DNA from: Propionibacterium freudenreichii subsp. freudenreichii
Lineage (GTDB): Bacteria > Actinomycetota > Actinomycetes > Propionibacteriales > Propionibacteriaceae
Direction of reading: 5' to 3'
Length of the DNA stretch: 32,000 nt
Assembly: GCF_000940845.1 (NCBI RefSeq)
Contig: NZ_CP010341.1
Span: 390,001 to 422,000 of the forward strand
The position numbers were made by a program, and so were the translations under genes. Shown here piece after piece: positions 1-26,348 of this stretch. Position 1 is the stretch's first letter, and every line of letters starts with the position of its first letter. Below the pieces are notes generated by a model. The model searched no databases and was not told the origin of the DNA. It saw nothing but the letters and a program-made list of their open reading frames with translations.

Positions 1-300
1 TCGGTCGAGGAGAAGGCCGCCGCGGTGCGGATGGTGAGGACGCTGCGCGCGGAGCTGGGCGTCACGCAGGGGACGGTGCAGCGGGTCGCGACGCAGCTCG
101 GTTACGGGGTCGAGTCCGTGCGGATGTGGGTCAAGCAGGCCGACGTCGACGACGGTGTCGTCCCCGGTGTGAGCTCGGCGGAGGAGCAGCGGGTGAAAGA
201 GCTCGAGCAAGAGAATCGGGAGCTGCGCCGGGCCAACGAGGTGCTGAAACGGGCGGCGTCTTTCTTCGGGGCGGAGCTCGACCGCCACTACCGGAAGTAG
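1..300 (+). CDS. IS3-family transposase OrfA (HTH / leucine-zipper part), N-terminus cut by the window edge
   Basis: Frame 1 is open from base 1 (SVEEKAAAVRMVRTLRAELG...). It contains an HTH-like segment and the heptad-like LEQENRELRRANEVLKRA, then ends ...FFGAELDRHYRK*, as typical for IS3 OrfA. Confidence 0.75.
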   Translation, partial: SVEEKAAAVRMVRTLRAELGVTQGTVQRVATQLGYGVESVRMWVKQADVDDGVVPGVSSAEEQRVKELEQENRELRRANEVLKRAASFFGAELDRHYRK

Positions 301-1220
301 TCGCGTTCATCGACGCGAACAAGGACGACGTCGTGGACGGTCGCCGGCTCGGAGTCGAGCTCATCTGCAGACTGTTGCAGGTGGCTCCGAGCAGCTACTA
401 CGCCGCCAAGACCCGTGCGCCCTCTGCCCGTGCGCTGCGTGACGAGGAACTGATCCCGCAGCTGGTCGAGATCTGGGAGGCCAACTACCGCGTCTACGGG
501 GTCCGCAAGCTCTGGAAGGCTGCCCGGCGTGGGGGCATCATGATCGGCCGCGACCAGACTGCGAGGCTGATGCGCGCCGCAGGGATCGAAGGTGCGAGGC
601 GGTCGAAGCGGGTGAAGACCACGCGGCCGGACCCGGCGTCGTCGCGGCACCCGGACCTGGTCAAGCGGGAGTTCACCGCGACGGCACCGAACCGGCTCTG
701 GGTGACCGATCTGACATTCGTGCCCACCTGGGCTGGCGTCGCCTACGTCTGCTTCATCATCGACGCGTTCTCCCGGATGATCGTGGGGTGGCGGGTCGCG
801 TCACATATGCGCACCGAGATGGTCCTCGACGCGATCGAGATGGCGCGCTGGTCCCGAGGCGCCCACCATGAGGATCTGCGGTGTCACAGCGACGCGGGCT
901 GTCAATTCACATCGATTCGCTACGGCGAACGCCTCGCAGAGATCGGTGCGACACCCTCGATCGGGACCGTCGGCGATTCGTATGACAACGCCCTGGCCGA
1001 GACGGTGAACGGCTACTACAAGGCCGAGTTGGTTCGCGGGCCCACCCGCTCGGGACCGTGGAAGACGGTCGAGGATCTCGAGCTCGCGACGCTCGGCTGG
1101 GTGCCCTGGCACAACACGCAGCGCCTCCACGGATACCTCGGAGACGTCCCACCCGCCGAGTTCGAGAACGTGTTCTATGCTGTCCCCAACGACAGCAATC
1201 TGCTGATCGGAATCAAATAG
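285..1220 (+). CDS. IS3-family transposase OrfB (DDE/RNase-H integrase core), expected as an OrfAB fusion via -1 frameshift
   Basis: Sequence is typical of IS3 OrfB: LWVTDLTFV..YVCFIIDAFSRMIVGW...HSDAGCQFTS..YDNALAETVNGYYKAE..HNTQRLHGYLGDVPPAEFE. The frame is open from 126, but similarity starts near 285 (PLPEVVAFIDANKD). The exact slippery site was not identified. Confidence 0.85.
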   Translation, partial: PLPEVVAFIDANKDDVVDGRRLGVELICRLLQVAPSSYYAAKTRAPSARALRDEELIPQLVEIWEANYRVYGVRKLWKAARRGGIMIGRDQTARLMRAAGIEGARRSKRVKTTRPDPASSRHPDLVKREFTATAPNRLWVTDLTFVPTWAGVAYVCFIIDAFSRMIVGWRVASHMRTEMVLDAIEMARWSRGAHHEDLRCHSDAGCQFTSIRYGERLAEIGATPSIGTVGDSYDNALAETVNGYYKAELVRGPTRSGPWKTVEDLELATLGWVPWHNTQRLHGYLGDVPPAEFENVFYAVPNDSNLLIGIK

Positions 1221-1263
1221 CGCGAGTCTCCATCAGACCCAGGGCGCTTCAGTCGAGGCCAAC

Positions 1264-2343
1264 ATGACCCGCATGATCGACTACTACAATCAACAGGCTT
1301 CAACCTGCGACGGAGAAGAGCAAAACCTCGACCGTGATCCCACCAAGATCAGCTGGTCATCCAGTCTCGTTCCCCGTGCCCTCCGCGGAGAATTGAGAGA
1401 GTTCCGAAAAGACTCAATACGAACGGGCCTCTACAGGCCGTTCTCAAAGCAAGCAGTCTACTTTGACTCCGTCTTCAATCATCGCCCCGGCAAGAGCGCT
1501 GCATACTTCCCCACCCCCGCACACGACAACATCGGCTTCTATCTTGTGGGAGTGGGTTCCGCGGTCCCGTTCAGTGCGGTCGCGATTGACTGCCTCCCGG
1601 ATCTCCATGTGACGGGGGCCGGAAGCGGCGGCCAGTTCTTCCCTCGCTGGACCTATGAGCGGGCCGATAGCGGCGACCAGGACGTCCTGCCTGCCCCCGA
1701 CGAGACCGTCGACGAGTGGGGCTACCGGCGCGTCGACAACATCACCGACCAAGCGCTCAAGGCTTATCGCGACGCGTTCGGCGCGCAGGTGTCCAAGGAT
1801 GACATCTTCTACTACGTCTACGCCGTCCTCCACTCGCCGCAGTACCGCACGGCGTTCGCCGCAGACCTCAAGCGCATGCTGCCCCGGATCCCGCTGGCCG
1901 CCTCCCGAGACGACTTCGAGCGGTTCGTCGATGCCGGGACCAGGCTGATTGATCTGCACGTCAACTATGAGTCGGTGGACCCGTACCCGCTGGTCGAACA
2001 CCACACCGAAGGCGTGCCGGAAGGTGTGCTGTACAGGGTGGAGAAGATGCGGTGGAAGGACAAGACCGCCAAGAAGACCCTCATCTACAACGCTCACGTC
2101 ACCCTCGACGACATCCCTGTCGTCGCCAGTGAGTACATGCTCGGCTCCAGATCGGCGCTGGAGTGGATCATCGACCGTTACAGGGTCAAGACGGACAAGG
2201 CCTCCGGCATCCTCAACGACCCCAACCAGTGGGCCACCGAGCACGACGATCCTCGCTACATCCTCGACCTGGTCAAACGCGTCACCCGAGTCTCCGTCGA
2301 CACCATGGCGGTCGTTGAAACTCTGCCGGGGCTCCCGTTGTGA
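1264..2343 (+). pseudogene. 3' fragment of a type ISP (LlaGI/LlaBIII-like) restriction-modification enzyme: C-terminal specificity domain only
   Basis: Motifs I associate with the type ISP C-terminal domain are present: YRPFSKQAVYFD, CLPDLHVTG..GGQFFPRWTYE, DIFYYVYAVLHSPQYR, LKRMLPRIPL, LHVNYE and SRSALEWIIDRYRVKTDKASGILNDPN. Only about 359 codons are present, whereas such enzymes are about 1500-1600 aa. The frame is open back to 1207 and runs straight into the IS3 right end. No nuclease, helicase or methylase parts are present here. Confidence 0.65.
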
Positions 2344-3311
2344 CCGATCCCGAACCCCTGGATCCGTGGACTCGGATCGACGTGTCGGGGTGGAAGGTGA
2401 ACCTTGTTGAGCCGGCCGGGTCGACCGCCGGCATGTGGCTGATCAGACCGGGCACCACACAGCACTGGTTGTGCAAGCTGACTACGACTCCGGCCACAGG
2501 TGTGGAGCAGGGCGAGGACTGGGCGGAGGTGGTGTCCACCCAAGTGGCACGGGCACTGTCTGTGCCCTGCGCTCAAACCTGTCTGTGCACCCAGGACGGC
2601 CAACGAGGATCGCTGTCACTGTCGGTGAGGCCCTTCGGCTATGACTTAGTCGAAGGAAAAGTCTTGCTCCAAACTGAGAATGTTCCCGGCTACGTGCCGT
2701 ATGAGGTGGGCGGCCATGCAGCTGATCCTCAGCGGCCCGGCGTCGAGCGGCCCGGCCACACTTTGGAGAACATCCGGAGAGTCCTGGACCAAGTAGAGCC
2801 CCCCGATGGATGGATGGGGCCTTCCACGGCGACTGGGTTTGACGTGTTCGTGGGGTACTTGGTGCTCGACGCCCTCGTGGCCAACCGTGACAGGCACGAG
2901 GAGAACTGGGCGGTCCTACGGGCTCAGACGAACGATGTCGCTGACCGAGTGTCTCCCTCCTACGATCATGGTGGGACCCTGGGATATCAGCTGTCCGAAG
3001 CCGCCCGCCTCAGCTGTCTCGACACGCAGGATGGCGTGGCTCGTTGGGCGAAACGCGGTACCGCCTGGCGGTTCGAACATCGACGACCTGCGCCCACTCT
3101 TGTCGAGGTTGCCGTACGGGGACTGGAGATGTGTCGGCCGGCCACTGCCGTGTGGTGGCGGTCTCGCCTGCACGACCTTGACCTCAGTGCCGTGGTTGAG
3201 CGGGTATCGTCAGGGGTTCCGGGAATGTCTGAGCTGGCCGGTAGGTTCATCACTGAACTGCTCAATATGAACGTCAGGAGGTTGCGGGATGCCTTACACA
3301 TCAGTGCTTGA
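2340..3311 (+). CDS. HipA-family Ser/Thr kinase, core kinase domain only (HipT-like); candidate toxin
   Basis: The catalytic loop has the pattern D-x-H-x-x-N (LVANRDRHEENWAVL), followed by SPSYDHGGTLGY (Mg-binding YD), as in HipA-family kinases. At 323 aa it is too short to include the HipA N-subdomain. The GTG start overlaps the upstream stop (GTGA at 2340-2343). Confidence 0.65.
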   Translation: MTDPEPLDPWTRIDVSGWKVNLVEPAGSTAGMWLIRPGTTQHWLCKLTTTPATGVEQGEDWAEVVSTQVARALSVPCAQTCLCTQDGQRGSLSLSVRPFGYDLVEGKVLLQTENVPGYVPYEVGGHAADPQRPGVERPGHTLENIRRVLDQVEPPDGWMGPSTATGFDVFVGYLVLDALVANRDRHEENWAVLRAQTNDVADRVSPSYDHGGTLGYQLSEAARLSCLDTQDGVARWAKRGTAWRFEHRRPAPTLVEVAVRGLEMCRPATAVWWRSRLHDLDLSAVVERVSSGVPGMSELAGRFITELLNMNVRRLRDALHISA

Positions 3312-4098
3312 GCGTGCCAGTGCCGATACCGCCACCCGTGTCGTGGACCTGCTGGTGTTGTGGCAGCGCCCCGACACCAGGCAGATCGTGCCGATTGGAC
3401 GGTTCGGCTTTAACGGCGTCGAGTACACGTTCTCCTATACCCGCACTGCCACCGAGCTCAGCAGCTTCCGGCCGCTTCCGGGTCTTGGCGGCTTGTTCGA
3501 TCGCTACCAGTCGACCACGATGCCTGCGGTATTCAGTCAACGTGTTATGTCCGATCAGCGGCCCGACTACAGCAGCTATCTTCACAGCCTGGGACTGGAA
3601 CGGGCCACCCCGTGGGAACAGATCGTGTACTCGGGTGGTCCCCGGGCTGGGGACACGTTGCAGTTCATGCAGATGCCGGTGGTGTCTGAGGGGACGGCGA
3701 CAGCTCAGTTCCTGGTGAACGGGATCTCGCACATTCCCGATGGACTACTGCGCCTCGACGATCGGACGGTTCAGGTCACCAGGCCGCAACTGGATGGCGC
3801 TCTTGCCGGGGTGCAGAAGTTCCAGAGTGTCCGCCTCGCCAGAGAGATCGACAACCCCGAAGATCCCCACGCGGTACTTGTCATGGATGGGACTGTCCCG
3901 CTGGGATGGGTGCCCCGTGTTCTCTCCCAAGGTGTGCGCCAGCTCATGGACGCAGGTTTGGCAGAAGCTGTGGTGGACAATCTGGGTTCTGTAGGTGCAT
4001 CGGACCACGAGCGCCTGACGTTGACCATCAGGACCTCAGCCCCAGAAGGATTCAGTTTCGATCCTGACGGGCGGTGGGATCCCGCCTTCCGCGGGTGA
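3289..4098 (+). CDS. HipS-like N-terminal domain fused to a C-terminal HIRAN domain; candidate antitoxin/sensor
   Basis: The N-terminal ~130 aa follow the HipA N-subdomain/HipS pattern (IVPIGRFGFNGVEYTFSYT..FRPLPGL..AVFSQRVMSDQRPDY..LGLERATPWEQIVYSGGPRAGDTLQF). The C-terminal ~100 aa fit HIRAN (VRLAREIDNPEDPHAVLVMDGTVPLGWVPRVLSQGVRQLMDAG). An AGGAGG Shine-Dalgarno sits 7 nt before ATG 3289, and the gene overlaps the kinase gene by 23 nt. Confidence 0.6.
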   Translation: MPYTSVLERASADTATRVVDLLVLWQRPDTRQIVPIGRFGFNGVEYTFSYTRTATELSSFRPLPGLGGLFDRYQSTTMPAVFSQRVMSDQRPDYSSYLHSLGLERATPWEQIVYSGGPRAGDTLQFMQMPVVSEGTATAQFLVNGISHIPDGLLRLDDRTVQVTRPQLDGALAGVQKFQSVRLAREIDNPEDPHAVLVMDGTVPLGWVPRVLSQGVRQLMDAGLAEAVVDNLGSVGASDHERLTLTIRTSAPEGFSFDPDGRWDPAFRG

Positions 4099-4253
4099 GT
4101 AGCGTCGGTGCTCCGGAGATTGCTCACCAATGGCCACCTCGACTGCCTCGTCGACCGCACCTTCGGCGCCACCAAGAAGCATGCCTGCAACCATGACGGG
4201 GAAGCATTGCTGTACAAGCGGTACTCGTCCAGGACGGGTCTGGGGCCACTCGC

Positions 4254-4760
4254 ATGACATGGGGAATTGCCGCTGACATTGCGACAACATTCGGCGTGTT
4301 CGTGGCACTCGTCGGCGTGATCGTGTCGGCCTTCCTCGGTGTGCGTTCCGAGAGAGCCAGCGCGAGCCGCTCGGAAGCGGCCGCCAGACTGAGCGACGAG
4401 AACGCTCGGTTGACGATAGCCGCTCTCGAAAAGATCGCAGCACATCAGCCAGGCCATGAGCCACTGCAAGTGGCCACGAAGGTCGCTTGGGCCATGACCC
4501 ACTACAAGGGCGACACCTACCAGTTGCAGAACATTGGAGACAAGACCGCATACGAGGTGGAGATAGACCCTGCCCGCGACGCGAACATGATATTCCGTAA
4601 GCCAGCTGTGGCCGATCTAAACCCAGAAGATGCACTTACCTTCTTGGCTGCCAAGACGATGGCTACGTTAGATAGCACGATCACGGTCGCATGGACTGAA
4701 GAGGGAGACAACACTCCGCACGAGTGGCGCTACCCCCTGCCTCCTCGTCCGCCACGTTAG
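4254..4760 (+). CDS. hypothetical protein with an N-terminal transmembrane anchor
   Basis: The 168-aa ORF has one clear hydrophobic helix (IAADIATTFGVFVALVGVIVSAFLGV) followed by a soluble domain. I recognise no family. GC is intermediate and some rare codons are used. Confidence 0.45.
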   Translation: MTWGIAADIATTFGVFVALVGVIVSAFLGVRSERASASRSEAAARLSDENARLTIAALEKIAAHQPGHEPLQVATKVAWAMTHYKGDTYQLQNIGDKTAYEVEIDPARDANMIFRKPAVADLNPEDALTFLAAKTMATLDSTITVAWTEEGDNTPHEWRYPLPPRPPR

Positions 4761-4869
4761 GCCTGGAGCGACGTGCAGTCACTGGAAGGTAGCTCGCGAG
4801 TTGGCCAGTCCTACCGCAAGCATGAGGTCATTTCAAGCAACTAGAAAATTGGCGTTGGGTGAATCTGAA

Positions 4870-6123
4870 TCATTTCAGTGACCTGAGCGCTTCGTCAGCT
4901 CGATACAAGTAGTAGAAGTCATGGGATGCAAGATCCTTTCTGGCTCTCGCTCTTTCCTTTGTCACGCTTCTGGCCATTATCCCTACAGTTGCCAACGCGC
5001 CGATTCCTGTCGCGATAGCTCCGTTAATGTCTGTCTTATCAGCAATCAGCATACCGATCGTTAAAGGCGCCCAAGTGCCATTCGCCAGACTTTTTATGTC
5101 ACCATCGACAGCCTGAATCATTTCACGAACAAGTCCATGGTCTGCCATAGCGGACCTAATCTCTTGAATTTCTGGCTCGACACGCGTTCTCCAAGCTGCA
5201 AGAATATCGGCCTGAACGTCAGCATCGAAGGGACTGGTAGTCATCTCCTCTCTCAGGGCCGCCACATCAGCGCGATATTGAGACAACGGTTCATCAAGAT
5301 CGCTTCGAAGATCCATGATCTCGTCCATTGGGGCTGTGGTGAAAGCTGGGAGGCAAGAAATGAATCCAGTCCCTAGAGTGGCTTCCTTGGCATTATTAAG
5401 TACTCGTGTTGAAGGTGTGATGAGTCCCTCATTCTGCATCGCCGTCACGAGGGGAGACGCGGTCGGATCGAGAAGAATCAGCTTGTACTGATCGTTGAGG
5501 GTCTTCGTGAGTTCATCGAGGAACTGATCGAGCAGATCGTTGGAATTGATCGCGCTTGATATGCGAGGATTGAAAGTTACTGTGCGGCTTGATATTACAC
5601 CGTTTAGCTCTTCGACCCCTGACGTAACACGTAGTTGATGGAGATCACTCAACATTTTGTCCATCTCGGGTCCATGTATAGACTCATGGATCTGAGTAAG
5701 CTGGTGATCGATCTCATTTCCTTGAGGGGAATCGTTCAAGATCTCTTTACGATCCTCTGGGTTCATATGTAACAGTGTTAGGGCCACTCGCAGTAAATGT
5801 ATATCCATGTTGTTCTGCTTCAGAATATCTGGTCCTGCTAGCTGTAGCAGTGTCTCATCGTCAAGAGACTGAAGAAACAGCCCTGGGTCTTCAGCGATAC
5901 CCTCCGCGGTACTTCGTGTCTGGTTGATTATTTCGGTCATGGGGCTTAACAGTTCGACATCGTCGGCATATAGTATGGATGCTTTTATAAGGTTATTTAC
6001 GTGTCGAAGTTCGGGTTGCTCTGAGGTTCCTACGCCTGTGGAGACGACAGTCAGATGAGTTGGATGCACTGTCTTGGCGGTGCGTCTTCTGCTTCTGTTT
6101 GGTGTGCGATTGTGCTTGGTCAC
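4870..6123 (-). CDS. hypothetical protein, low-GC (foreign) gene, with a C-terminal glycine-zipper-like membrane segment
   Basis: This 417-aa ORF is the only long ORF in the stretch. Hand-counted 60-nt lines at 5581, 5761 and 5941 give 40-48% G+C, versus 70% for line 6241 in the neighbouring recombinase gene. The C-terminus reads GTWAPLTIGMLIADKTDINGAIATGIGALATVGIMA. I recognise no family. GTG start at 6123 with GAGGAG upstream. Confidence 0.55.
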   Translation of the reverse strand: MTKHNRTPNRSRRRTAKTVHPTHLTVVSTGVGTSEQPELRHVNNLIKASILYADDVELLSPMTEIINQTRSTAEGIAEDPGLFLQSLDDETLLQLAGPDILKQNNMDIHLLRVALTLLHMNPEDRKEILNDSPQGNEIDHQLTQIHESIHGPEMDKMLSDLHQLRVTSGVEELNGVISSRTVTFNPRISSAINSNDLLDQFLDELTKTLNDQYKLILLDPTASPLVTAMQNEGLITPSTRVLNNAKEATLGTGFISCLPAFTTAPMDEIMDLRSDLDEPLSQYRADVAALREEMTTSPFDADVQADILAAWRTRVEPEIQEIRSAMADHGLVREMIQAVDGDIKSLANGTWAPLTIGMLIADKTDINGAIATGIGALATVGIMARSVTKERARARKDLASHDFYYLYRADEALRSLK

Positions 6124-6170
6124 GAGACTCCTCGTCGGTGGTCGGTCTGCTGTTGGTCCGGGAAAGAGCT

Positions 6171-6746
6171 TCAGTGTTGGTAGCGGCCTTGGCCGGACAG
6201 GGCGGTGTAGAGGGTCTGCCGCGACACTCCGAGATCCCGGGCGACCCTGGATTTGGTCACCCCGTTGGCGATGCGCCGGCGGGCGGTGTCGATCTGGTCG
6301 GCCGACAGTTTCGGGGTCCGGTTGTAGACGCCGCGGGCTTTGGCCAGGGCGATGCCCTCGGCCTGGCGTTCTTTGATGGTGGCTCGTTCCAGTTGAGCTA
6401 CAGCGCCCAGGATGGTGAGCATGAACTCACCCTGGGGGGAGTCGGTGTTCAGGGCGGGCTGGTCGATGAACTGGATCTGGACGTCCTTGTCCTTGAGCTG
6501 GTTGACCAGGGCGAGGAGGTCGGTGGTGGAGCGGGCGAGCCGGTCGGGCGACTTCACCTTCACCACATCACCGGAGCGCACGTAGCCGAGCATGGCCTGC
6601 AGCTGAGGCCGGTCGGTGGTCCTGGCCGAGATCTTCTCGGCGAAGAGCCGATCAACCTGGCCGATGGCCTCCAACTGGCGTGCCGGGTTCTGGTCAGTGG
6701 TCGAGACCCTGACGTAGCCGACAGTCTGCCCGTCATGTCCACTCAT
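6171..6746 (-). CDS. small serine recombinase (resolvase/invertase family)
   Basis: The N-terminal catalytic motif is VGYVRVSTTDQNPARQ, followed by SPDRLARSTTDLL, GAVAQLERATIKERQAEGI and a C-terminal HTH (VTKSRVARDLGVSRQTLY). At 191 aa it matches the Hin/Gin/gamma-delta resolvase size. Confidence 0.9.
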   Translation of the reverse strand: MSGHDGQTVGYVRVSTTDQNPARQLEAIGQVDRLFAEKISARTTDRPQLQAMLGYVRSGDVVKVKSPDRLARSTTDLLALVNQLKDKDVQIQFIDQPALNTDSPQGEFMLTILGAVAQLERATIKERQAEGIALAKARGVYNRTPKLSADQIDTARRRIANGVTKSRVARDLGVSRQTLYTALSGQGRYQH

Positions 6747-6986
6747 GCTTAAACTCTACGACAGAGCTGTCCATCATGTCTCAAAGCGGCATGGTTGGAC
6801 ACGGTTTCCCGTGGGGCGGGGGAGTGTCTGGTGGGGTATACCCCGGTGGGCGGATCAGCTGCTCAGTGCGATTCGGACTCCTGGCTCGGTCAGGACATCA
6901 CAAATCGACCAGGACTCCCAGGCGATCCAGATGCGGGGCGGGGGCGGGGTAGCCCTGGGCTGGACGTGGCGCACCGGCCCTGCACA

Positions 6987-7036
6987 GTGGTGGCCATGGT
7001 CACATACGCACGCTCGTCTGTGACCATGGCCACCAC
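6987..7036 (-). terminator. Perfect 18-bp inverted repeat hairpin (14-nt loop) directly after the stop of the 7043-7957 gene
   Basis: GTGGTGGCCATGGTCACA (6987-7004) pairs with TGTGACCATGGCCACCAC (7019-7036). No U-tract follows on the minus strand, so this would be an I-shaped terminator as often assumed in high-GC actinobacteria. A recombinase or other protein-binding site is an alternative. Confidence 0.4.
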
Positions 7037-7042
7037 CATCTG

Positions 7043-7957
7043 CTAGGCCGCTGTGCCGTCCTCGGTGGTGTCATCGACGCGCTCGTCGACGAACCGCTCG
7101 AATGCGGCTATGAGGTCTTGCTCATCGTCGAAGGCATGGAGTGTCTTGGCGACGTTCGCCTGTCGGACGGGTTTCAGCTCGGCCCTCCTCTGGAGGACGT
7201 CCTTGGGTGTCTTCAGCCATTTGCCGTCGGAGGTGAGCACGGCCTGCGTGAACTGAACGTAGGAGAGCACGGTGGTCTCGTAGTAGCGGCGAGCTGACAT
7301 GAGGAGATTCCGTCGGGCCCATCCCTTGGGGACCAGGAGGAGCGGGCGGTCGTTTGCGACGGGCAACCGACCACGAGCTGTTGTCCATCGCATGGCGTGC
7401 CGATCCCAAACCGGTCGTTCGACGGACTCGGTGTGGTGAGAGCCAGCCGTGAACTGCGGGTAGATGTCGAGCATCGCTGCGGTGAACTGCATGAGCGGGT
7501 CGAAAACGATCCGGGTAGTGATGTCGGAAGTGATGTCTCGGTCGATGCCTTCAACGAACATCGGAAGTTCTTCAAGATGACGCAGCACACCGATTCGAAC
7601 CAGTGCTTCAACGTTTCCAAGAAGTGTGTCCCAGATCAAGGTGCCGACCTGGTCTGCACCGCCGTGGCCGTGTGTACCGGTTCTTGTCATGCCGAGGCAC
7701 GTCTCGCTTGGCTCATGGAAGTGCTGGAGCAAATCCAGGCCGTGTCTATGTGTATCCTCACCTCCGTCCAGGATGCAGCGCGTCACCTCCGAGAAGAACG
7801 TGTCCATGTCTGTGGCGGCCATCTGCGCGTATGGTTCCGGACCTCCTGAGATGCGGATGGCATGAGGGTCGAGGAACAGGAGGTTGTCTCCCGTCACATC
7901 GACGTCGAGGAATGGGACCGGACCGGGGATCCCGTAGTAGGTACTGATGTTTGACAA
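7043..7957 (-). CDS. hypothetical protein (304 aa from TTG 7957; the ORF is open to GTG 8041)
   Basis: This is a long ORF with good coding appearance. AGGAGG lies 9 nt upstream of TTG 7957, giving an N-terminus LSNISTYYGIPGPVPFLDVDV.... I recognise no domain. Confidence 0.55.
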   Translation of the reverse strand: MSNISTYYGIPGPVPFLDVDVTGDNLLFLDPHAIRISGGPEPYAQMAATDMDTFFSEVTRCILDGGEDTHRHGLDLLQHFHEPSETCLGMTRTGTHGHGGADQVGTLIWDTLLGNVEALVRIGVLRHLEELPMFVEGIDRDITSDITTRIVFDPLMQFTAAMLDIYPQFTAGSHHTESVERPVWDRHAMRWTTARGRLPVANDRPLLLVPKGWARRNLLMSARRYYETTVLSYVQFTQAVLTSDGKWLKTPKDVLQRRAELKPVRQANVAKTLHAFDDEQDLIAAFERFVDERVDDTTEDGTAA

Positions 7958-8112
7958 GGCGTGTTGCCTCCTGGGTTGTTGCCCAAGGGGGAAGCAGTGG
8001 CTTGTGCCACAGGAAACTCCGCTACGCTGGTGAAGACTCACAAGTCATCATCTGCGCCCCTTGGGCCAGAGGCGGCCCGGGACTGTTCGAGCAGTCCCGG
8101 GCCGTCACATTC

Positions 8113-8842: not shown

Positions 8843-10269
8843 GGCTCTTCACGAACGAGGGTGTAGCGCGGGTCTGAATCCGCCGGCTTCGAGCAGCGAC
8901 CGAGCGATGTAGTGGCTGAGGTTGCGGAAGCCGAGGGCCGTGCCGCGGAGGTGTTCGAGTCGGCCGTTGATCGCTTCGGTGGGGCCGTTGCTGGTGCCGG
9001 GGCGGTCGAAGTAGCCGAGCACGTCCGAAGCGCGCTGTGTGAGGGTGCGGGCGAGTTTGCGGATCTCGACGAGCTGCTCCGGGACGCTGGCGCTGATCTT
9101 GTCGATCGTGTGCGCGAGGAAGAATCTGCCCAGGCCGCGGTCCTTGTCCCGGTAGGCGGTGATCATGTCTTGGTAGATGCCCCACGTCGCTTCGACCTCG
9201 ACGTGCCTGTCGTCGACGAACAGGGCATCTAGCCGCGCCTGCTGCTTGTCGGTGAGCAGACCGGCACCGGTGAGCAGGGTCCGTCTGGCCTGGTAGGGCG
9301 GATCGCCCTTCATGCCCCGCCGGCCGAAGACGTCGTGCTGTACCCGGCGTCGGCAGTTCTCCAGCGCGTCACCGGCGAGCCGGATCACGTGGAACGGATC
9401 CATGACCGGGGCCGCGTCGGGCAGTTCTTCGGCGGCGGCGGTCTTGAACCCGGTGAATCCGTCCATGGCGACGACCTCGATCCCCTCTCGCCAGGGCTTC
9501 GGTCTGGCGGCGAGCCAGGTCTTGAACACGGCTTTCGAGCGTCCGGCGACCATGTCCAGCAGCCGTGCCGGGCCGGTCTTGTCGCGCACCGGGGTCAGGT
9601 CGATGATCACGGTCACGTACGTGTCGCCGTGGCGGGTGTGTCGCCACACGTGCTCGTCGACGCCGATCGTGGTCACGCCCTCGAACCGCGCCGGGTCATC
9701 GATCAGCCGCCGGCGGCCCTCGGCGAGGATCGCGTCGTTCGCGGCGGACCAGGACACCCCCAGCCCTGCCGCGACACGCGTGACCGAGAGATGATCGAGG
9801 ACCAAGCCCGCCAGCCCCCACGCCAACCCACCGCGGGAGATCTTCGCCCGTACCGGCGCGGCGGCCGTGGTGTCCTGCCGCCAGACCCGCCCACACCCGC
9901 AGCATTTGTAGCGCCGGACCCGGATCAGCAGGGTCGTGGGCCGATGCCCGAACGGCTCATGCGCGAGCCGACGGATCACCGTGTCGCGCGGGGCGCCCTC
10001 GCATCCACACTCGCGGCACCACCGGTCCGGCTCCACGACACGGCACTCGATCACCGCCCGATCCGGGTCCAGACGCTGCCCGACAGCCTCCAGGCCGAGC
10101 TCGTCGAGACCGCAGAACGTGGTCAGGCAAGGTGTAGTGAAAGTAGGGTGTGACACGTCGAGGTCTTCCGGCAGATGGCGAGTGTGAGAACTTCCATCCT
10201 CAGGGAGACCTCGACCCCTACCCGGCCACCGACACGCTCAACCCGCTACACCCTCGTTCGTGAAGAGCC
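8843..10269 (-). mobile_element. ISL3-family insertion sequence, copy A (1427 bp)
   Basis: Perfect 26-bp terminal IRs GGCTCTTCACGAACGAGGGTGTAGCG at both ends. It is identical to the copy at 26349-27775 except for two positions visible in the translations. The flanks AGGCCCAC and CGTTTGGT do not match, so there is no target duplication. Confidence 0.9.
8849..10156 (-). CDS. ISL3-family transposase (435 aa)
   Basis: An N-terminal zinc-finger-like Cys pair region (CRECGCEG...CCGCGRVW) is followed by a DDE_Tnp_ISL3-type body (IGVDEHVWRH..., VVAMDGFTGFKTA, TSNGPTEAINGRLEHLRG). GTG start. Confidence 0.9.
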   Translation of the reverse strand: MSHPTFTTPCLTTFCGLDELGLEAVGQRLDPDRAVIECRVVEPDRWCRECGCEGAPRDTVIRRLAHEPFGHRPTTLLIRVRRYKCCGCGRVWRQDTTAAAPVRAKISRGGLAWGLAGLVLDHLSVTRVAAGLGVSWSAANDAILAEGRRRLIDDPARFEGVTTIGVDEHVWRHTRHGDTYVTVIIDLTPVRDKTGPARLLDMVAGRSKAVFKTWLAARPKPWREGIEVVAMDGFTGFKTAAAEELPDAAPVMDPFHVIRLAGDALENCRRRVQHDVFGRRGMKGDPPYQARRTLLTGAGLLTDKQQARLDALFVDDRHVEVEATWGIYQDMITAYRDKDRGLGRFFLAHTIDKISASVPEQLVEIRKLARTLTQRASDVLGYFDRPGTSNGPTEAINGRLEHLRGTALGFRNLSHYIARSLLEAGGFRPALHPRS

Positions 10270-10277: not shown

Positions 10278-11716
10278 GGCTCATCCCAATCGGGGGTGTA
10301 GGAGTTGGGGTCTGAAGCCGCCGGTCTCGAGCAGGCTTCGGGCGATGTAGTTGGTCAGGTTGCGGAACCCGAGTGCGGAGCCGCGCAGGTGTTCGAGCCG
10401 TCCGTTGAGCGCCTCGGTCGGCCCGTTGCTGGTGCCGGGTCGTTCGAAGTAGGCGAGCACGTCAGCGGCTCGCTTCTTCAGGGTCCGGCCCAGGGTGGTG
10501 AGCTCGGTGAGCACCTTGGGGACGCCGGCGCTGAGGTCGGTGATCAGCTTCTCCATGAGCTCGCGGCCACGTTGCCGGTCCTCGTGGCGATAGGCGGCGA
10601 TCATGCGCTGGTAGACACCCCAGGTCGCCTCGACCTCGACGTGAGCGTCATCAACGAACAGCGCGCGTAGCCTGTCGCTCTGCTTGTCGGTGAGCAGGTC
10701 CGCGCCGGTGTGCAGCGTGCGCCGCGACTTGTAGAGCGGGTCGTCCCTGAACCCACGGTGCCCGTGGATCGCGAGTTGGACCCGGCGCCGGCACCTGTCG
10801 AGGGCGTCACCGGCCAGGCGCACGACGTGGAAGGGATCCATCACCGTGACCGCGTCCGGGATCTCCTCTGCAGCGGCGGTCTTGAACCCGGTGAAGCCGT
10901 CCATCGCGACCACCTCGACCGCGTCACGGAAGGCGTCGTCGCGGTCGGCGAGCCAGGTCTTGAACGCCGCCTTCGACCGGCCCTCGACCATGTCCAGCAG
11001 CCTTGCTGGGCCGGCGCCATCGCGGACCGGGGTGAGGTCGATGATCACGGTGACGTACTTGTCGCCACGCCTGGTGTGGCGCCAGACGTGCTCATCGACG
11101 CCAATGACCTTCACGCCCTCAAACCGCGTGGGGTCGTTGATCAGCAGCCGCTTGCCTTCAGCCAGGACCGCGTTGTTGGCGGTGTCCCACGCGACCCCGA
11201 GTCCCTCGGCGACACGGGCGACGGTGAGGTGTGCGACCACGATCCCTTCCAGCGCCCACCGCAGCCCGGTGCGCGAGAGCTTCGCGCGTGGCTCCGCCGC
11301 GGCGCTGGTGTCTTGGCGCCACACGTGTCCGCAGTCGGCACAGCGGTAGCGGCGCACTACAACTTCCAGCACGGTCGGTCGCCAGCCCAGCGGCTCGTGG
11401 GCCAACCGCCGGATCACGGTGTCACGAGCAGCGCCTTCGCTGCCGCACCGTCGGCACCACTGATCTGGTTCCACCACGCGGCACGCGAGGACCGCACGAT
11501 CCGGTTCAAGTCGTTGTCCGGTCACGCTCAGACCGAGGCCGTCGAGTCGAGCGAAGGCGGTCAGGTCAGGGCGGCCGAAGCCGGCCGGCGGGGTAGCGTC
11601 GGACACGTCGAGGTCTTTCGGATGGATGGCGTAGGAACCTCCATCGTCGGGAGACCTCGACGTCTATCTGCGGACCGACGCGCCCGGCCGACCTACACCC
11701 TCATCTGAGAAGACCC
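10278..11716 (-). mobile_element. Second, divergent ISL3-family insertion sequence, element B (1439 bp)
   Basis: It is flanked by a perfect 8-bp direct repeat CGTTTGGT (10270-10277 and 11717-11724). The imperfect IRs are GGCTCATCCCAATCGGGGGTGTAGG and GGGTCTTCTCAGATGAGGGTGTAGG (18/25 identical). Confidence 0.85.
10281..11606 (-). CDS. ISL3-family transposase (441 aa), paralogous to the copy A/C enzyme
   Basis: It is collinear with the 435-aa transposase along its whole length, with the same Cys motifs plus IGVDEHVWRH and TSNGPTEALNGRLEHLRG, but has many substitutions. Confidence 0.9.
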   Translation of the reverse strand: MSDATPPAGFGRPDLTAFARLDGLGLSVTGQRLEPDRAVLACRVVEPDQWCRRCGSEGAARDTVIRRLAHEPLGWRPTVLEVVVRRYRCADCGHVWRQDTSAAAEPRAKLSRTGLRWALEGIVVAHLTVARVAEGLGVAWDTANNAVLAEGKRLLINDPTRFEGVKVIGVDEHVWRHTRRGDKYVTVIIDLTPVRDGAGPARLLDMVEGRSKAAFKTWLADRDDAFRDAVEVVAMDGFTGFKTAAAEEIPDAVTVMDPFHVVRLAGDALDRCRRRVQLAIHGHRGFRDDPLYKSRRTLHTGADLLTDKQSDRLRALFVDDAHVEVEATWGVYQRMIAAYRHEDRQRGRELMEKLITDLSAGVPKVLTELTTLGRTLKKRAADVLAYFERPGTSNGPTEALNGRLEHLRGSALGFRNLTNYIARSLLETGGFRPQLLHPRLG

Positions 11717-12272: not shown

Positions 12273-15200
12273 TCAGGTCGCGGCGGCCCGTGCCGCCAGG
12301 TACAGGCCCTGGGGCATGGGCCGGCGAAGGCGCCATGTGATGCTGATCGGCTTGGAACCGCTGTAACTCACCAGATCGACCAGGCCCAGGAATGTGTACG
12401 GCGCTCCCTTGCCGAGGTCGTCGTTGCCGCGCTGGCGCACGAACAGTGCAAGGTCAAAGCTCTGGGCATGCTCGCCAAGCAGGCGTCGGCCGCTTGAACT
12501 GCCCGGGGTGGTTGCCGATTGCGACTGCCAGTGGAACAGCGTGTCGTTGATTGCGTAGTCCGCATACATGGTGCTGTCGGTGAAGGTATCCGAGTCCTTC
12601 TCCAACTGCACGCTCAATGCGCCGATTCCGGTCGACTCAACCCAGACGACCCCCTCGCGGACATCCCCGGGCATCCGCGCGTCACCATCGGCCCGGCCCA
12701 CGCCGATCGCCGCCAGCAACTCCTCGCGTCGGTAGGTGCCGTGCACCACCAACGGGGTGCCGGCCAGGTTTCCCCCGGGCCTTTCGAACACGGCGCGAGA
12801 TGCGTCGACCGAGGATTCCATGACTTCCCGCAGCTCATCGGAGAACCAGCCATGAGCCCGCAACACGTCGAGGCCGTCGCGGATGCTGCCAATGAGCTGG
12901 TCGTCCTGATCGCGGCCCTTGGGCCACACCGAATAGAACAGCATCTCCGCGGCGATGCGCTGCATGGGCCCCAGGTTGTCCCATTGTGGGCCCTGCGGTG
13001 AGCTCAGGGCCACATATGCCTGGGCGCGCGCCGGATCGTCGACATGGGCGAAATTGCGCACCCGACCACGCAGATAGGCCCCGGTGGGGCTGACGTCGAT
13101 GGTCGTTGCGAGCCCCGCCCGATGCCGGATGAAGGTCATCTCCACCGGCTCGCCGCGGAACTTGGACCGGCCAAAGATGGATCCGAGGGTCAGTCCGGAC
13201 TCGGCAAGGAACCGACGCAGCGAATACTCCGTCGGGCTGGCGGAGCGGCGGGCGTAGTCCGCGAACTCATTCACCAGGCGCAGCGTGGTGGTGGCCAGCT
13301 GCCTCTTCACATTCTTCAGGACTTCCTTCTGCGACATCTTGTCGAACTGGATCTCGCAGCCCGCCGGCAGCTCGCTGAACCCCTTCTCCACAGAGTCGAC
13401 CAGCTGCTTGCGTCCCTGGCCGGTCAAGGCCCGCAGGCGGGGTTCGAAGCTGAAGTCCTCGCGCTGGTGTCCCACGAAGTCCAACACGGTGAGCACCGAC
13501 TTTCCCGGTGCCCGACGCAGACCGCGTCCCAGCTGTTGCAGGAAAATCGTGGCCGATTGGGTCGGACGCAGCATGATCACCGTGTCGATCGACGGGATGT
13601 CGATGCCCTCGTTGAACAGGTCCACGGTGCACAAGCAGGCCAGCCTGCCCTCCCGCAGATCGCGGATGGCCGCCTCGCGGATTTCCCGAGACGACTGCCC
13701 CGACAATGCAACCGATGGCACGCCGGCCTGGCTCAACACATCCGCCATGTAGTGCGCGTGCTCCACGCTCACGCAGAAGGCGAGCGCCTTCATGCGCGTG
13801 GGATCCAGGATGCGGTGGCGCATCGCCGCCAGCACGAGCCGGGAGCGGCCGTCATTGTCCGTGTAGAGCCGTGACAACTCACCGGCCTGGTATTCGCCGC
13901 CGCTGGCCTTGACGCCGCGCAGGTCGGTGTCGTCCCACTGCACGAAGTAATGGAATGGCGCCAGCAGGTCGCCGTCGAGGGCGTCCCACAGGCGCAATTC
14001 CGAGGCGATCCGATCACCGAAGAAGGAGGCGACATTGACGCCGTCAGCGCGTTCGGGGGTTGCCGTCAGACCCAGGAGCTCGCGGGGCTGGAAATGGTCA
14101 AGGATGCGGCGATATGTTGCCGCCTCGGCGTGGTGGAATTCGTCGATCACCATCACGTCGAAGGCGGTGGGATCAAGCGCGTCGAGGTTCATGCGGCTCA
14201 GGGATTGCACGGACGCGAAGACGTGGCGATGCTCGGTCGGGTGTTCGCCGCCGACCAGGAGTTCGCCGAAGTTGGCGTCGTTGAGCACGTGGGCGTAGGT
14301 ACTGCGGGCCTGCTCCAGGATTTCCTTGCGGTGGGCCACGAACAGCAGCGAGAGCGAGCCGGGCTTGTCGCCGCACAGCCGCAGGTAGTCCAGCGCGGCC
14401 AGCACCGTCTTGCCCGTGCCTGTGGCGGCGACCACCAGGTTGCGGTGGAAGTCCTGCTGGCGCTCGTGGGCAAGGTCGTCGAGCATGATCCGCTGGTGGG
14501 GCTGCGGCTGGATGTCGAGGAACGCGGCATCAAAGTGCCGGCCCGGTTGGGTAACGGCCTGCTTGAGGCTGGTGGCCAGCCGCTCGTCGTCGCGCCCGGG
14601 TAGGTAGGGCTCGAATTTCGGATCGTCCCAATAGGTGTCAAAAGCGGTCCCGAGCTTGGAGAACAATGCCAGTTCGTTGACCGCCGAGACCCTGACATTC
14701 CATTCCAGGCCGTCGACCATTGCGGCGTGCGACAGATTCGAGCTGCCGATGAAAGCGGTATGGAATCCGGAATTGCGGTAGATCATCCATGACTTCGCAT
14801 GCAGGCGCGTGGTTCCGGTGTTGTAGTTCACCTTCACCTGGAAACCGAGCTCATCGGCCAACCGGTGGATCGCCGTGGCGTCCGTGGCGCCCATGTACGT
14901 GGTGGTGAGCAGGCGGACTGGCACGCCCTGCTCGTGCAGCATCGCCAGCGTGTCCATGATCGATTGGATGCCCGACCACTTGACGAAGGCGCACAGCAGG
15001 TCGACGCGGTCAGCGGTGGCGAGCTCGAGGTTGAGCGCCTGTGCCAGGGACTCGTCACGGCGTGCGTTGGTGATCAGGGTCGACTCGTTGAGCGGCGTCA
15101 GCGGACGCGTGGCATAGCGCGGACGGCCGTCGGTGAGCGACTGGAGCTCCATCGGATCGCCGCTGGAGTCAGTGACCAGCTGGGCACTGGGGCCGGCGAT

Positions 15201-26300: not shown

Positions 26301-26346
26301 TGTGGACCCCGCCTCAATGAAGGGCCCCTCCAGAAGGAGGGGCAAT
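23341..26346 (-). CRISPR. CRISPR array, leader-distal block: 42 repeats of 36 bp and 41 complete spacers
   Basis: The repeat is GCCTCAATGAAGGGCCCCTCCAGAAGGAGGGGCAAT as written on the + strand, with an internal hairpin CCCCTCC-AGAA-GGAGGGG. I located all 42 copies by hand. Spacers are 32-40 bp. Variant repeats occur at 23341 (T at 23357), 23412 (first base T), 23485 (A at 23514), 24062 (GA at 24086-24087), 24718 (A at 24744) and 26237 (G at 26260). Confidence 0.97.
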
Positions 26347-26348
26347 CT

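What the first reader, a model, noticed from the sequence alone, without database searches (positions are those of the whole stretch)
2340..4098. Split Hip-type kinase module: core kinase plus HipS-like/HIRAN partner, translationally coupled to a restriction gene
Seen in the sequence:
- Two overlapping genes: GTGA overlap with the upstream gene, and a 23-nt overlap between the pair.
- The first protein has the HipA-family catalytic signature (NRDRHEENW, then SPSYDHG) but lacks the N-subdomain.
- The second protein begins with a HipS/HipA-N-like segment and ends in a HIRAN-like domain (NPEDPHAVLV..LGWVPR).

Established knowledge:
- In HipBST the detached N-subdomain protein HipS neutralises the kinase HipT.
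- HipA-type kinases poison translation by phosphorylating aminoacyl-tRNA synthetases.
- HIRAN domains bind free DNA 3' ends and fork structures (HLTF/Rad5).
- From memory, a 2021 phylogenetic survey of Hip kinases predicted bicistronic operons with HipS-HIRAN partners. I know of no experimental characterisation.

Inference: the antitoxin half may sense DNA ends, such as injected or replicating phage DNA or restriction products, and release a growth-arresting kinase. That would make this an abortive-infection module functionally wired to the adjacent type ISP restriction enzyme, which is now disrupted.
Basis: partly seen in the sequence, partly recalled or inferred. Interest (0 to 1): 0.8.

Follow-up and report, generated by a model that had tools for sequence, protein, structure and literature searches.

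The report
HipI kinase and HipN partner module
Two overlapping genes encode a HipA-type toxin kinase and a partner that joins a HipS-like inhibitor domain to a HIRAN DNA-end-binding domain; this is an already predicted but untested anti-phage candidate (hipIN / PADLOC PDC-M03), here attached to the end of a restriction enzyme gene that an insertion sequence has broken.

Summary
Window 2340-3311 encodes a 323-aa core HipA-fold kinase with all catalytic motifs. Window 3289-4098 encodes a 269-aa protein with a HipS-like domain followed by a HIRAN domain. Both overlaps (GTGA and 23 nt) are real, and the upstream gene is the C-terminal remnant of a Type ISP restriction enzyme split by an IS3 element.

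The pair is not new in kind. It is the hipIN module of Gerdes et al. 2021 and candidate system PDC-M03 of PADLOC (E 1e-102 and 5e-60). The DNA-end-sensing abortive-infection idea was published in 2021. I found no experimental study.

What is new is the context.
- In most relatives, hipN abuts a convergent deoxydinucleotide nuclease (diDNase) gene. This was seen in 13/21 genome loci and 30/43 metagenome loci.
- The Acidipropionibacterium loci, and one relative at about 55-60% identity, lack the diDNase and sit on the stop codon of a Type ISP gene.
- Other relatives sit in the same way on Type I hsdR.

So a link to translocating restriction enzymes recurs, but it is not universal. hipIN also stays intact in strains where the Type ISP gene is broken.

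Novelty: new variant of a known kind. Interest about 0.5.

The parts
1..1252 (+). Right-hand part of an IS3-family insertion sequence. It carries orfA (25-300) and the frameshifted orfB (126-1220). The right inverted repeat ends at about 1250-1252. The element splits the Type ISP gene.
   Evidence: ORFs. Pfam HTH_Tnp_1/HTH_21/rve/rve_3 on the same element in L024, L026 and L027. 32-nt terminal inverted repeats and a GTC target duplication in L026. The window is 99.9% identical to L026/L027 over window 1-7047.
1253..2343 (+). C-terminal remnant (target-recognition domain) of a Type ISP restriction-modification enzyme. The listed ORF is 1264-2343.
   Evidence: Pfam Type_ISP_C E 2.5e-95, profile positions 30-342 of 342. 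PADLOC REase_MTase_IIG E 5.6e-119, aligned to model positions 1271-1638 of 1646. Intact 1,619-aa and 1,611-aa versions exist in L023, L025 and L002.
2340..2343 (+). GTGA overlap between the Type ISP stop codon and the hipI start codon.
   Evidence: Sequence. The same GTGA junction occurs in L023, L002 and L036.
2340..3311 (+). hipI: a 323-aa core HipA-superfamily Ser/Thr kinase without N-subdomain 1. Features: Gly-rich loop near residues 23-31, K46, catalytic loop D184-R-H186-x-x-N189, and Mg-binding D209.
   Evidence: PADLOC PDC-M03A E 1.1e-102. Pfam HipA_C E 8.4e-7. AlphaFold2 model pLDDT 91.9. Foldseek matches CtkA at E 7e-12 and then HipA and HipT. Invariant residues.
3276..3311 (+). Coupling region between the two genes: AGGAGG at 3276-3281 and the 23-nt hipI/hipN overlap at 3289-3311.
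   Evidence: Sequence. The 23-nt overlap is conserved in most related loci.
3289..4098 (+). hipN: a 269-aa two-domain partner and putative antitoxin/sensor.
   Evidence: PADLOC PDC-M03B E 4.6e-60. AlphaFold2 model pLDDT 82.7, pTM 0.80.
3337..3693 (+). HipS-like domain of HipN (HipA N-subdomain-1-like), residues about 17-135. Invariant motifs: LLxxWQ, TPWEQI and GGxRxGDxLQF.
   Evidence: Foldseek matches the 102-residue partner chain of a bacterial kinase complex (7vkb_B, TM 0.70) and a 101-residue chain of the E. coli HipBST complex (7ab3_E, TM 0.65), both with probability 1.0; I read both chains as HipS from their size, since the output does not name them. Pfam Couple_hipA is only marginal: 5 of 19 homologues, best E 0.005, and no hit for the window protein itself. 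Invariants.
3694..4038 (+). HIRAN domain of HipN, residues about 136-250, with an invariant N189-P-x-D192 motif.
   Evidence: Pfam HIRAN E 5e-5. Family profile against PDB 3k2y E 1.7e-4. Foldseek matches 3k2y and the HLTF HIRAN domains 4s0n, 4xzg, 6kcs and 5bnh with probability 1.0.
4108..4760 (+). Two small ORFs directly downstream: 49 aa (4108-4257) and a 168-aa protein with a hydrophobic N-terminal stretch that looks like a membrane helix (4254-4760). They overlap each other by 4 nt. They may be co-transcribed but are not part of the conserved module.
   Evidence: Called in L026 and L027. No Pfam or PADLOC family. Homology to L002 ends at window 4078 and to L023 at 4305.

Best explanation
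This is a hipIN module (PADLOC candidate PDC-M03): a two-gene, toxin-antitoxin-like kinase switch that sits in a defence island.

Shown
- HipI is a core HipA-fold protein kinase with a complete catalytic apparatus and no N-subdomain 1.
- HipN supplies that missing subdomain as a separate HipS-like domain, fused to a HIRAN domain.
- The two genes are always adjacent, in this order, and share a conserved 23-nt overlap.

Inferred
- The overlap makes the two proteins be produced together.
- The HipS-like domain docks on the kinase and holds it inactive, as HipS does to HipT.
- The HIRAN domain is the sensor. When it binds a DNA-derived ligand that appears during infection or DNA breakdown (free 3'-OH ends or short DNA fragments), inhibition is released.
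- The kinase then phosphorylates an essential host protein, whose identity is unknown, and arrests growth.

Context
- In Acidipropionibacterium the module has been inserted on the stop codon of a Type ISP restriction gene and is probably transcribed with it.
- It has lost the diDNase gene that accompanies most relatives.
- In this strain an IS3 element has cut the restriction gene, leaving hipIN intact.
For: Identity of the two proteins
- PADLOC PDC-M03A/B at E 1e-102 and 5e-60.
- The kinase model (pLDDT 91.9) matches CtkA, HipA and HipT. The catalytic D, H, N and D residues are invariant.
- The HipN model (pTM 0.80) matches both HIRAN structures and chains I take to be HipS in two kinase complexes.

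Pair conservation
- 20/21 genome loci and 64/68 metagenome loci. The 23-nt overlap is conserved.

Toxin/antitoxin asymmetry
- The kinase is knocked out while HipN stays intact in L024 (nonsense codon 85) and in L013 (IS110 insertion).
- Relatives carry an N-terminal HipB-like HTH fused to HipS-HIRAN, which is typical of antitoxins.
- An actinobacterial phage encodes a stand-alone copy of the HipS-like domain (hhalign probability 99.5%, E 3e-22). This is what a phage counter-defence would look like.

Defence context
- The window also carries a Type IV restriction enzyme, a Cas4-Cas1 fusion and a CRISPR array.
- Relatives lie next to Type I RM, GmrSD and CBASS genes, on plasmids, and beside prophage integrases.

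Coupling to restriction genes
- GTGA junction to Type ISP in three lineages.
- TTGA junction to hsdR.

Published basis
- HipS neutralises HipT through a wedged Trp (PMC10627512).
- The hipIN hypothesis of Gerdes et al. (PMC8262856).
Against: - No experiment on any hipIN module was found.
- The HipS-like call rests on a predicted structure. Sequence support is marginal.
- HIRAN scores just below Pfam's cut-off. Gerdes et al. state that actinobacterial HipN HIRAN domains lack most DNA-contact motifs.
The position matching HLTF Tyr93 is Glu191.
- The nearest solved kinase is CtkA, not HipA or HipT. An aminoacyl-tRNA synthetase target therefore cannot be assumed.
- The gene order (kinase first) is the reverse of hipBST.
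- In L017 the HipN reading frame is broken while the kinase is intact. This is a long-read MAG, so it may be a sequencing error.
- With the IS3 element upstream, it is unknown whether hipIN is still transcribed in this strain (one search was uninformative).
Confidence: 0.6

Rival explanations
1. Plain addiction module. HipI/HipN is a toxin-antitoxin pair whose only role is to stabilise the mobile defence island or the restriction operon it rides on. Cells that lose it are killed or arrested. No phage or DNA signal is sensed.
For: - The locus lies among many insertion sequences.
- Relatives occur on plasmids, next to integrases and on an integrative element.
- Type I and Type ISP enzymes are not self-addictive, so a toxin-antitoxin pair on their 3' end could stabilise them (inference).
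Against: - This does not explain why a HIRAN domain is conserved on the antitoxin in 1,589 sequence clusters.
- It does not explain why a diDNase gene is conserved against hipN.
- It does not explain why a phage carries a stand-alone HipS-like domain.
Confidence: 0.17
2. HipN is a targeting or activating subunit, not an inhibitor. The HipS-like domain completes the kinase, as N-subdomain 1 does within HipA. The HIRAN domain brings the kinase to DNA ends, where it phosphorylates a DNA-bound protein such as a phage replication or repair factor, or the restriction enzyme itself.
For: - N-subdomain 1 is an integral part of active HipA (PMC8262856).
- The HipN model is a compact two-domain unit, pTM 0.80.
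- The repeated fusion to translocating restriction enzymes and the CtkA-like rather than HipT-like kinase leave the substrate open.
Against: - Kinase genes are found inactivated while HipN is kept. This fits a toxin better than a harmless enzyme.
- The phage-encoded stand-alone HipS-like domain makes more sense as an inhibitor.
- HTH-HipS-HIRAN fusions look like autoregulating antitoxins.
Confidence: 0.12
3. Guard of the restriction enzyme, in the manner of PrrC-EcoprrI. HipIN is held silent by the Type ISP enzyme and fires when a phage anti-restriction protein inactivates that enzyme.
For: Stop/start coupling to Type ISP in three lineages and to Type I hsdR in others.
Against: - The window, L026 and L027 have an IS3-split Type ISP gene, and L022 has a truncated one, yet hipI and hipN are intact.
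- Most relatives have no adjacent restriction gene at all: 3/66 metagenome loci.
- HipN already provides a built-in inhibitor domain.
Confidence: 0.06
4. In this particular strain the module is a silent relic. The IS3 insertion has cut it off from the Type ISP promoter, so it is on the way to decay.
For: - The IS3 element lies about 1.1 kb upstream.
- No promoter-like site was found between the IS3 element and hipI.
- A sister strain with the same IS3 insertion (L024) already has a nonsense codon in hipI.
Against: - Both ORFs are intact here and in L026 and L027, and HipN is 100% identical across A. jensenii strains.
- The consensus promoter scan does not cover actinobacterial promoters.
- IS3 elements can drive outward transcription (general knowledge).
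Confidence: 0.05

Closest known systems
hipIN modules (Gerdes, Baerentsen and Brodersen 2021, mBio, PMC8262856), also catalogued as PADLOC candidate system PDC-M03
   Same: - Short core HipA-family kinase with the four kinase motifs and no N-subdomain 1.
- Downstream gene encoding a HipS-like domain plus a HIRAN domain, in a bicistronic arrangement.
- Actinobacterial subclade.
- Both PADLOC models match at E 1e-102 and 5e-60.
   Different: - Here the pair is a third cistron on the stop codon of a Type ISP restriction gene.
- It lacks the convergent diDNase gene that accompanies most actinobacterial relatives.
- The 2021 survey had only 14 hipIN modules. The family now spans 1,589 clusters at 50% identity.
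diDNase-HipA-HIRAN gene clusters (Mortensen et al. 2025, NAR, PMC11706625)
   Same: The same kinase and HIRAN-protein families occur in Actinomycetes, in genomic islands near defence genes.
   Different: The window and all Acidipropionibacterium loci, as well as L036, have no diDNase gene.
HipBST of E. coli O127:H6 and Legionella pneumophila
   Same: - The HipA kinase is split into a core kinase (HipT) and a separate N-subdomain-1 protein (HipS).
- Chains I take to be HipS are structural matches of the HipN N-terminal half.
- A conserved Trp, W109 in TPWEQI, is present in HipN; whether it occupies the position of HipS Trp65 was not tested.
   Different: - There is no HipB gene here.
- The gene order is reversed, with the kinase first.
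- The HipS-like domain carries a HIRAN domain.
- The kinase is structurally closer to CtkA than to HipT.
- Equivalence of W109 to HipS Trp65 was not established at residue level.
HipL (kinase, HipS-like and HIRAN domains in one polypeptide; Gerdes et al. 2021)
   Same: The same three domains in the same order.
   Different: Here they are split into two translationally coupled proteins.
CtkA of Helicobacter pylori (PDB 3akj, 3akk, 3akl)
   Same: It is the closest solved structure to HipI: Foldseek E 7e-12, TM 0.7-0.8. It is also the only PDB match of the kinase family profile, at E 1e-6.
   Different: As far as I recall, CtkA is a stand-alone secreted kinase. It has no HipS/HIRAN partner in the structures that matched.
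PrrC-EcoprrI and similar abortive-infection genes embedded in Type I restriction operons (from general knowledge)
   Same: A growth-arresting effector is encoded inside or at the end of an operon for an ATP-dependent restriction enzyme.
   Different: - The effector is unrelated: a kinase rather than an anticodon nuclease.
- hipIN carries its own inhibitor domain.
- hipIN survives loss of the restriction enzyme.
HLTF/Rad5 HIRAN domain and bacterial HIRAN protein lp_0118 (PDB 3k2y)
   Same: The fold matches and the N-P-x-D core motif is shared.
   Different: - The position aligned with HLTF Tyr93 is Glu191 (HLTF sequence and numbering from memory).
- There is an insertion of about 30 residues after the first strand.

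Membership tests
HipA-superfamily kinase (Pfam HipA_C, PF07804) | Significant match to the family profile | tested here: inconclusive
   E 8.4e-7, but 29.3 bits against a gathering cut-off of 30.5. Most homologues carry a precomputed PF07804 hit.
HipA-superfamily kinase (Pfam HipA_C, PF07804) | HipA/CtkA kinase fold | tested here: met
   Model pLDDT 91.9. Foldseek matches CtkA at E 7e-12, HipA (3dnv) at 2e-6 and HipT (8ezs_B) at 2e-5, all with probability 1.0.
HipA-superfamily kinase (Pfam HipA_C, PF07804) | Catalytic loop D-x-H-x-x-N and Mg-binding Asp conserved | tested here: met
   D184, H186, N189 and D209 are invariant in 34 sequences. K46 and G27 are also invariant.
HipA-superfamily kinase (Pfam HipA_C, PF07804) | Protein kinase activity and toxicity | not testable with these tools
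   Needs expression and phosphorylation assays.
hipIN (Gerdes 2021) / PADLOC PDC-M03 | Short core kinase lacking N-subdomain 1, with the Gly-rich loop near the N-terminus | tested here: met
   323 aa. Conserved G27 with S/T28 at residues 23-31. Pfam HipA_C aligns from residue 36.
hipIN (Gerdes 2021) / PADLOC PDC-M03 | [quoted passage not shown] | tested here: met
   Foldseek matches 7vkb_B (TM 0.70) and 7ab3_E (TM 0.65), probability 1.0; I take both chains to be HipS from their size, as the output does not name them. Sequence-level support is weak.
hipIN (Gerdes 2021) / PADLOC PDC-M03 | C-terminal HIRAN domain on the same protein | tested here: met
   Pfam E 5e-5, just under the cut-off. Family profile against 3k2y E 1.7e-4. 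Foldseek matches 3k2y and HLTF HIRAN domains.
hipIN (Gerdes 2021) / PADLOC PDC-M03 | Both PADLOC models matched by adjacent genes | tested here: met
   PDC-M03A E 1.1e-102 and PDC-M03B E 4.6e-60.
hipIN (Gerdes 2021) / PADLOC PDC-M03 | [quoted passage not shown] | not tested
No Propionibacteriales entry was found in the supplementary text held.
HipBST | Tricistronic hipB-hipS-hipT operon with a HipB HTH protein | tested here: not met
   No HTH gene. The upstream gene is Type ISP. The order is kinase then partner.
HIRAN domain as a DNA 3'-end binder | Conservation of the DNA-contact residues of HLTF | tested here: inconclusive
   The N-P-x-D core is invariant. Gerdes et al. report that actinobacterial HipN lacks most motifs.
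diDNase-HipA-HIRAN three-gene cluster | DEDD diDNase gene directly adjacent to hipN | tested here: not met
   No tblastn hit in the window or in any Acidipropionibacterium locus. It is present in 13/21 genome loci and 30/43 metagenome loci. Its identity was confirmed against PDB diDNase entries.
Type ISP restriction-modification enzyme (upstream gene) | Single polypeptide with Mrr-like nuclease, helicase, coupler, methyltransferase and target-recognition domain | tested here: not met
   In the window only the Type_ISP_C part remains in frame, behind an IS3 element. The full architecture is present in L023, L025 and L002.

The most novel reading that the evidence does not exclude
hipIN may be a checkpoint that reads the products of DNA degradation.
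- The HIRAN pocket of HipN would bind the 3'-terminal nucleotides of short DNA fragments, possibly deoxydinucleotides. These accumulate when translocating restriction enzymes (Type I or Type ISP) and the exonucleases that follow them shred DNA.
- The convergent diDNase would normally clear this signal and set the threshold.
- In the Type ISP-coupled lineage without a diDNase, the restriction enzyme encoded on the same transcript would be the signal generator. Heavy restriction activity, meaning an infection that is not being contained, would then release the kinase.
- Phages would answer with stand-alone HipS-like decoys, such as gp43 of Rathayibacter phage NCPPB3778.
Probability: 0.15. Interest if true: 0.8.

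Novelty: new variant of a known kind. Interest (0 to 1): 0.5.

Why it matters
- hipIN/PDC-M03 is a large family (1,589 clusters at 50% identity) for which I found no experimental study. It joins a toxin kinase to a DNA-end-binding fold, and its trigger and target are unknown.
- The comparisons here give three concrete handles on mechanism:
  - a conserved partnership with a nuclease that destroys deoxydinucleotides;
  - repeated stop/start fusion to restriction enzymes that translocate along DNA (Type ISP and Type I);
  - a phage gene that looks like a decoy copy of the inhibitor domain.
- Acidipropionibacterium jensenii offers natural isogenic-like variants for testing: intact Type ISP, IS3-split Type ISP, and a kinase nonsense mutant.
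- If the kinase is released by DNA breakdown products, this would be a new way of linking restriction to growth arrest.

Tried and rejected
- Sequence-only support for the HipS-like domain. A profile of the N-terminal domain found no HipS or HipA in the PDB. Pfam Couple_hipA matched only 5 of 19 homologues, weakly. I therefore could not map W109 onto HipS Trp65.
- NCBIfam gave no family for either protein.
- The promoter and terminator scan of 1000-4900 found nothing useful.
- Literature searches for HipI/HipN/HipL, HIRAN with anti-phage and kinase, and HIRAN with HipA returned no experimental work and much noise. HIRAN in Millman et al. 2022 was a false hit on an author name.
- A scan for relatives of the phage HipS-like protein in viral contigs found none.
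- A strict PrrC-like dependence on Type ISP was considered and given low weight, because hipIN is intact where the Type ISP gene is broken.
- A lipid or small-molecule kinase was considered because PI3K, PI4K and MavQ appear low in the Foldseek list. I rejected it in favour of a protein kinase because the top matches are CtkA, HipA and HipT.

Full report
**1. The observation**

- The first starts at a GTG that overlaps the upstream stop codon as GTGA. This GTG is the only listed start codon (ATG/GTG/TTG) in the ORF upstream of the nearly invariant W10 and D14 of the family, so the overlap is genuine.
- The second starts at an ATG 23 nt before the first gene's stop, preceded by AGGAGG at a 7-nt spacing.
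- The quoted motifs are present.
- The window is 99.9% identical to Acidipropionibacterium jensenii contigs over window 1-7047. The HipN protein is found with an identical sequence in several A. jensenii genomes.

**2. What the two proteins are**

*The kinase*
- It matches PADLOC model PDC-M03A at E 1.1e-102.
- It matches Pfam HipA_C at E 8.4e-7, 1.2 bits under the gathering score.
- An AlphaFold2 model built on 34 homologues is confident (pLDDT 91.9, pTM 0.91).
- Its best structural matches are the H. pylori kinase CtkA (E 7e-12, TM 0.7-0.8), followed by E. coli HipA, Legionella HipT and E. coli O127 HipT.
- A profile of the family finds only CtkA in the PDB by sequence.
- The catalytic loop (D184, H186, N189), the Mg-binding D209, K46 and the Gly-rich-loop G27 are invariant.
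- At 323 aa, with the Gly-rich loop at residues 23-31, it is a core kinase without HipA's N-subdomain 1.

*The partner*
- It matches PDC-M03B at E 4.6e-60.
- Its C-terminal half matches Pfam HIRAN at E 5e-5, 1.2 bits under the cut-off.
- The family profile matches the bacterial HIRAN protein 3k2y at E 1.7e-4.
- The AlphaFold2 model (pLDDT 82.7, pTM 0.80) matches two different sets of PDB entries. One set is HIRAN domains (3k2y and HLTF 4s0n, 4xzg, 6kcs, 5bnh). The other is the short partner chain of two kinase complexes (7vkb_B, TM 0.70; 7ab3_E, TM 0.65), which I read as HipS from their size because the output does not name the chains.
- The HipS-like assignment is therefore structural. At sequence level it is marginal.
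- Invariant motifs of the N-terminal half include TPWEQI and GGxRxGDxLQF. The HIRAN half keeps an invariant N-P-x-D.

**3. It is a known, predicted family**

- Gerdes et al. 2021 named exactly this architecture hipIN: a HipI kinase plus HipN, where HipN is a HipS-like domain followed by HIRAN. They proposed that the HIRAN domain senses phage DNA ends and triggers abortive infection.
- They list no experimentally analysed module in that clade. They also note that actinobacterial HipN HIRAN domains lack most DNA-contact motifs.
- PADLOC lists the pair as candidate system PDC-M03. [quoted passage not shown]
- My literature searches found no functional study.
- The 2021 survey had 14 hipIN modules. 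An exhaustive profile search now finds 1,589 clusters at 50% identity, 877 of them at E <= 1e-10.

**4. Conservation of the pair**

- In 21 loci from species-representative genomes, the kinase gene lies directly upstream of hipN in 20.
- In 80 metagenome loci found with the kinase profile, 64 of the 68 with enough downstream sequence have hipN adjacent on the same strand.
- The 23-nt overlap is retained in most loci, even at about 50% protein identity.

**5. The usual third gene, which is missing here**

- In four diverged genomes a gene of about 206 aa for a DEDD exonuclease converges on hipN, with the 3' ends overlapping. It is a diDNase: PDB 9qrf, 9f7g and 9f7d match at E 3e-41 to 3e-24. 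This family was shown by Mortensen et al. 2025 to hydrolyse deoxydinucleotides, and they noted that it clusters with HipA and HIRAN genes.
- It is present in 13/21 genome loci and in 30/43 metagenome loci.
- It is absent from the window and from every Acidipropionibacterium locus.

**6. The link to restriction enzymes**

- In A. jensenii DSM 20535 and in LR134473.1, the upstream gene is an intact 1,619-aa Type ISP enzyme. Its domains are Mrr_cat_2, ResIII/Helicase_C, ISP_coupler, Eco57I and Type_ISP_C, and its stop codon overlaps the hipI start.
- A second Acidipropionibacterium lineage (hipIN about 89% identical) has the same arrangement, with an intact 1,611-aa gene.
- A metagenomic relative at only 55-60% identity (L036) starts with the last 25 codons of a Type ISP gene, DLVKRITRVSVDTISIVDGLPELPL*, joined by the same GTGA. 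It too lacks a diDNase gene.
- In the window, L024, L026 and L027 the Type ISP gene is split by an IS3 element with 32-nt inverted repeats and a GTC target duplication. In L022 it is truncated to 738 aa.
- Other relatives are coupled to Type I systems:
  - hsdM-hsdS-hsdR, then hipI through a TTGA overlap, then hipN, with the diDNase converging (L037 and L039; also L041, L044 and L045; L017 has the same order).
  - Alternatively hsdM-hsdS-hsdR-diDNase as one operon converging on hipIN (Flexivirga; L091).
- Such couplings are still a minority. Only 3 of 66 metagenome loci have an R gene ending at the kinase start.
- hipI and hipN are intact in strains whose Type ISP gene is broken. The enzyme is therefore not what keeps the kinase silent.

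**7. Evidence on how it works**

Several observations fit a toxin kinase held by an inhibitor domain.
- The kinase is knocked out while HipN is unchanged in L024 (Q85 to stop) and in Nocardioides alpinus (IS110 insertion).
- Some relatives carry an N-terminal HipB-like HTH fused to HipS-HIRAN (P0321 and P0331).
- Rathayibacter phage NCPPB3778 encodes a 127-aa stand-alone copy of the HipS-like domain among small genes, with no kinase or HIRAN. The hhalign probability is 99.5% at E 3e-22 over the whole domain, and the Trp is conserved. I read it as a candidate decoy inhibitor. This is inference.

The defence setting is clear.
- The window also holds a Type IV restriction enzyme, a Cas4-Cas1 fusion and a long CRISPR array.
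- Relatives sit beside Type I RM, GmrSD and CBASS genes, on plasmids, and next to integrases of a C. difficile prophage and of Vibrio elements.

Not shown by any of this: kinase toxicity, the kinase target, ligand binding by the HIRAN domain, or phage defence.

**8. Verdict**

- It belongs to an already predicted family whose proposed mechanism is published, so the module itself is not new.
- The new element is the architecture: a diDNase-less hipIN riding on a Type ISP gene. Alongside it is the broader pattern of repeated fusion to translocating restriction enzymes.
- I rate it a new variant of a known kind, with interest 0.5.
- The most novel reading still open is that HipN reads DNA-degradation products, possibly the deoxydinucleotides that the diDNase removes, and so links restriction to growth arrest. 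I give it a probability of about 0.15.

Noticed in passing
L034 2486-2869 (Rathayibacter phage NCPPB3778, KX911187.2, gene NCPPB3778_43): [quoted passage not shown] It may be a decoy antitoxin against hipIN.
   Followed up: partly
L024 9052-10023 (A. jensenii CP120878.1): The kinase gene has a nonsense codon at residue 85 (CAG to TAG relative to the window), while HipN is 100% identical. In Nocardioides alpinus (L013) the kinase gene is split by an IS110 element.
   Followed up: yes
window 23485-29231: A long CRISPR array with the 36-nt repeat GCCTCAATGAAGGGCCCCTCCAGAAGGAGGGGCAAT. It is interrupted by an ISL3 element at 26462-27769.
   Followed up: no
window 29999-31600 (-): A Cas4-Cas1 fusion gene. 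The best PADLOC model is Cas1g at E 7e-233, with Cas4 models matching residues 3-187. It lies next to the CRISPR array.
   Followed up: no
window 12273-15437 (-): A 1,054-aa Type IV methyl-directed restriction enzyme (PADLOC mREase_IV, E 2.7e-280). It confirms that the region is a defence island.
   Followed up: no
window 4870-6123 (-) and 6171-6746 (-): A 417-aa ORF lies in a region of unusually low G+C (0.48 for window 5001-6000, against 0.59-0.70 elsewhere). It has no significant Pfam or PADLOC family, and it sits next to a resolvase/invertase gene (Resolvase and HTH_7 domains). It may be a foreign cassette.
   Followed up: no
window 1253-1628, compared with L023: Nucleotide homology between the window and the strain with an intact Type ISP gene starts only at window 1628. 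The C-terminal 370 residues of the enzyme are 68% identical, against 92% for the N-terminal 1,300. The strains therefore appear to carry different alleles in the C-terminal, target-recognition part of the enzyme on the same hipIN cassette.
   Followed up: partly
P0321 and P0331: Relatives of HipN carry an N-terminal XRE/HipB-like helix-turn-helix domain fused to the HipS-like and HIRAN domains. This is a three-in-one putative antitoxin.
   Followed up: no
L028 7813-14790 and L091 5189-12025: In two unrelated lineages the diDNase gene follows hsdR in the same orientation, after hsdM and hsdS; in L028 the two genes overlap by 4 nt. The whole unit converges on hipIN.
   Followed up: partly
window 7043-8041 (-): A 332-aa ORF with a weak match to PADLOC candidate PDC-M36A (E 2.9e-11) and no Pfam family.
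   Followed up: no
window 8849-10156 (-), 10281-11606 (-), 26462-27769 (+): Three ISL3-family transposase copies, in addition to the IS3 element. Insertion sequences have heavily reshuffled the island, and its layout differs between A. jensenii strains.
   Followed up: partly
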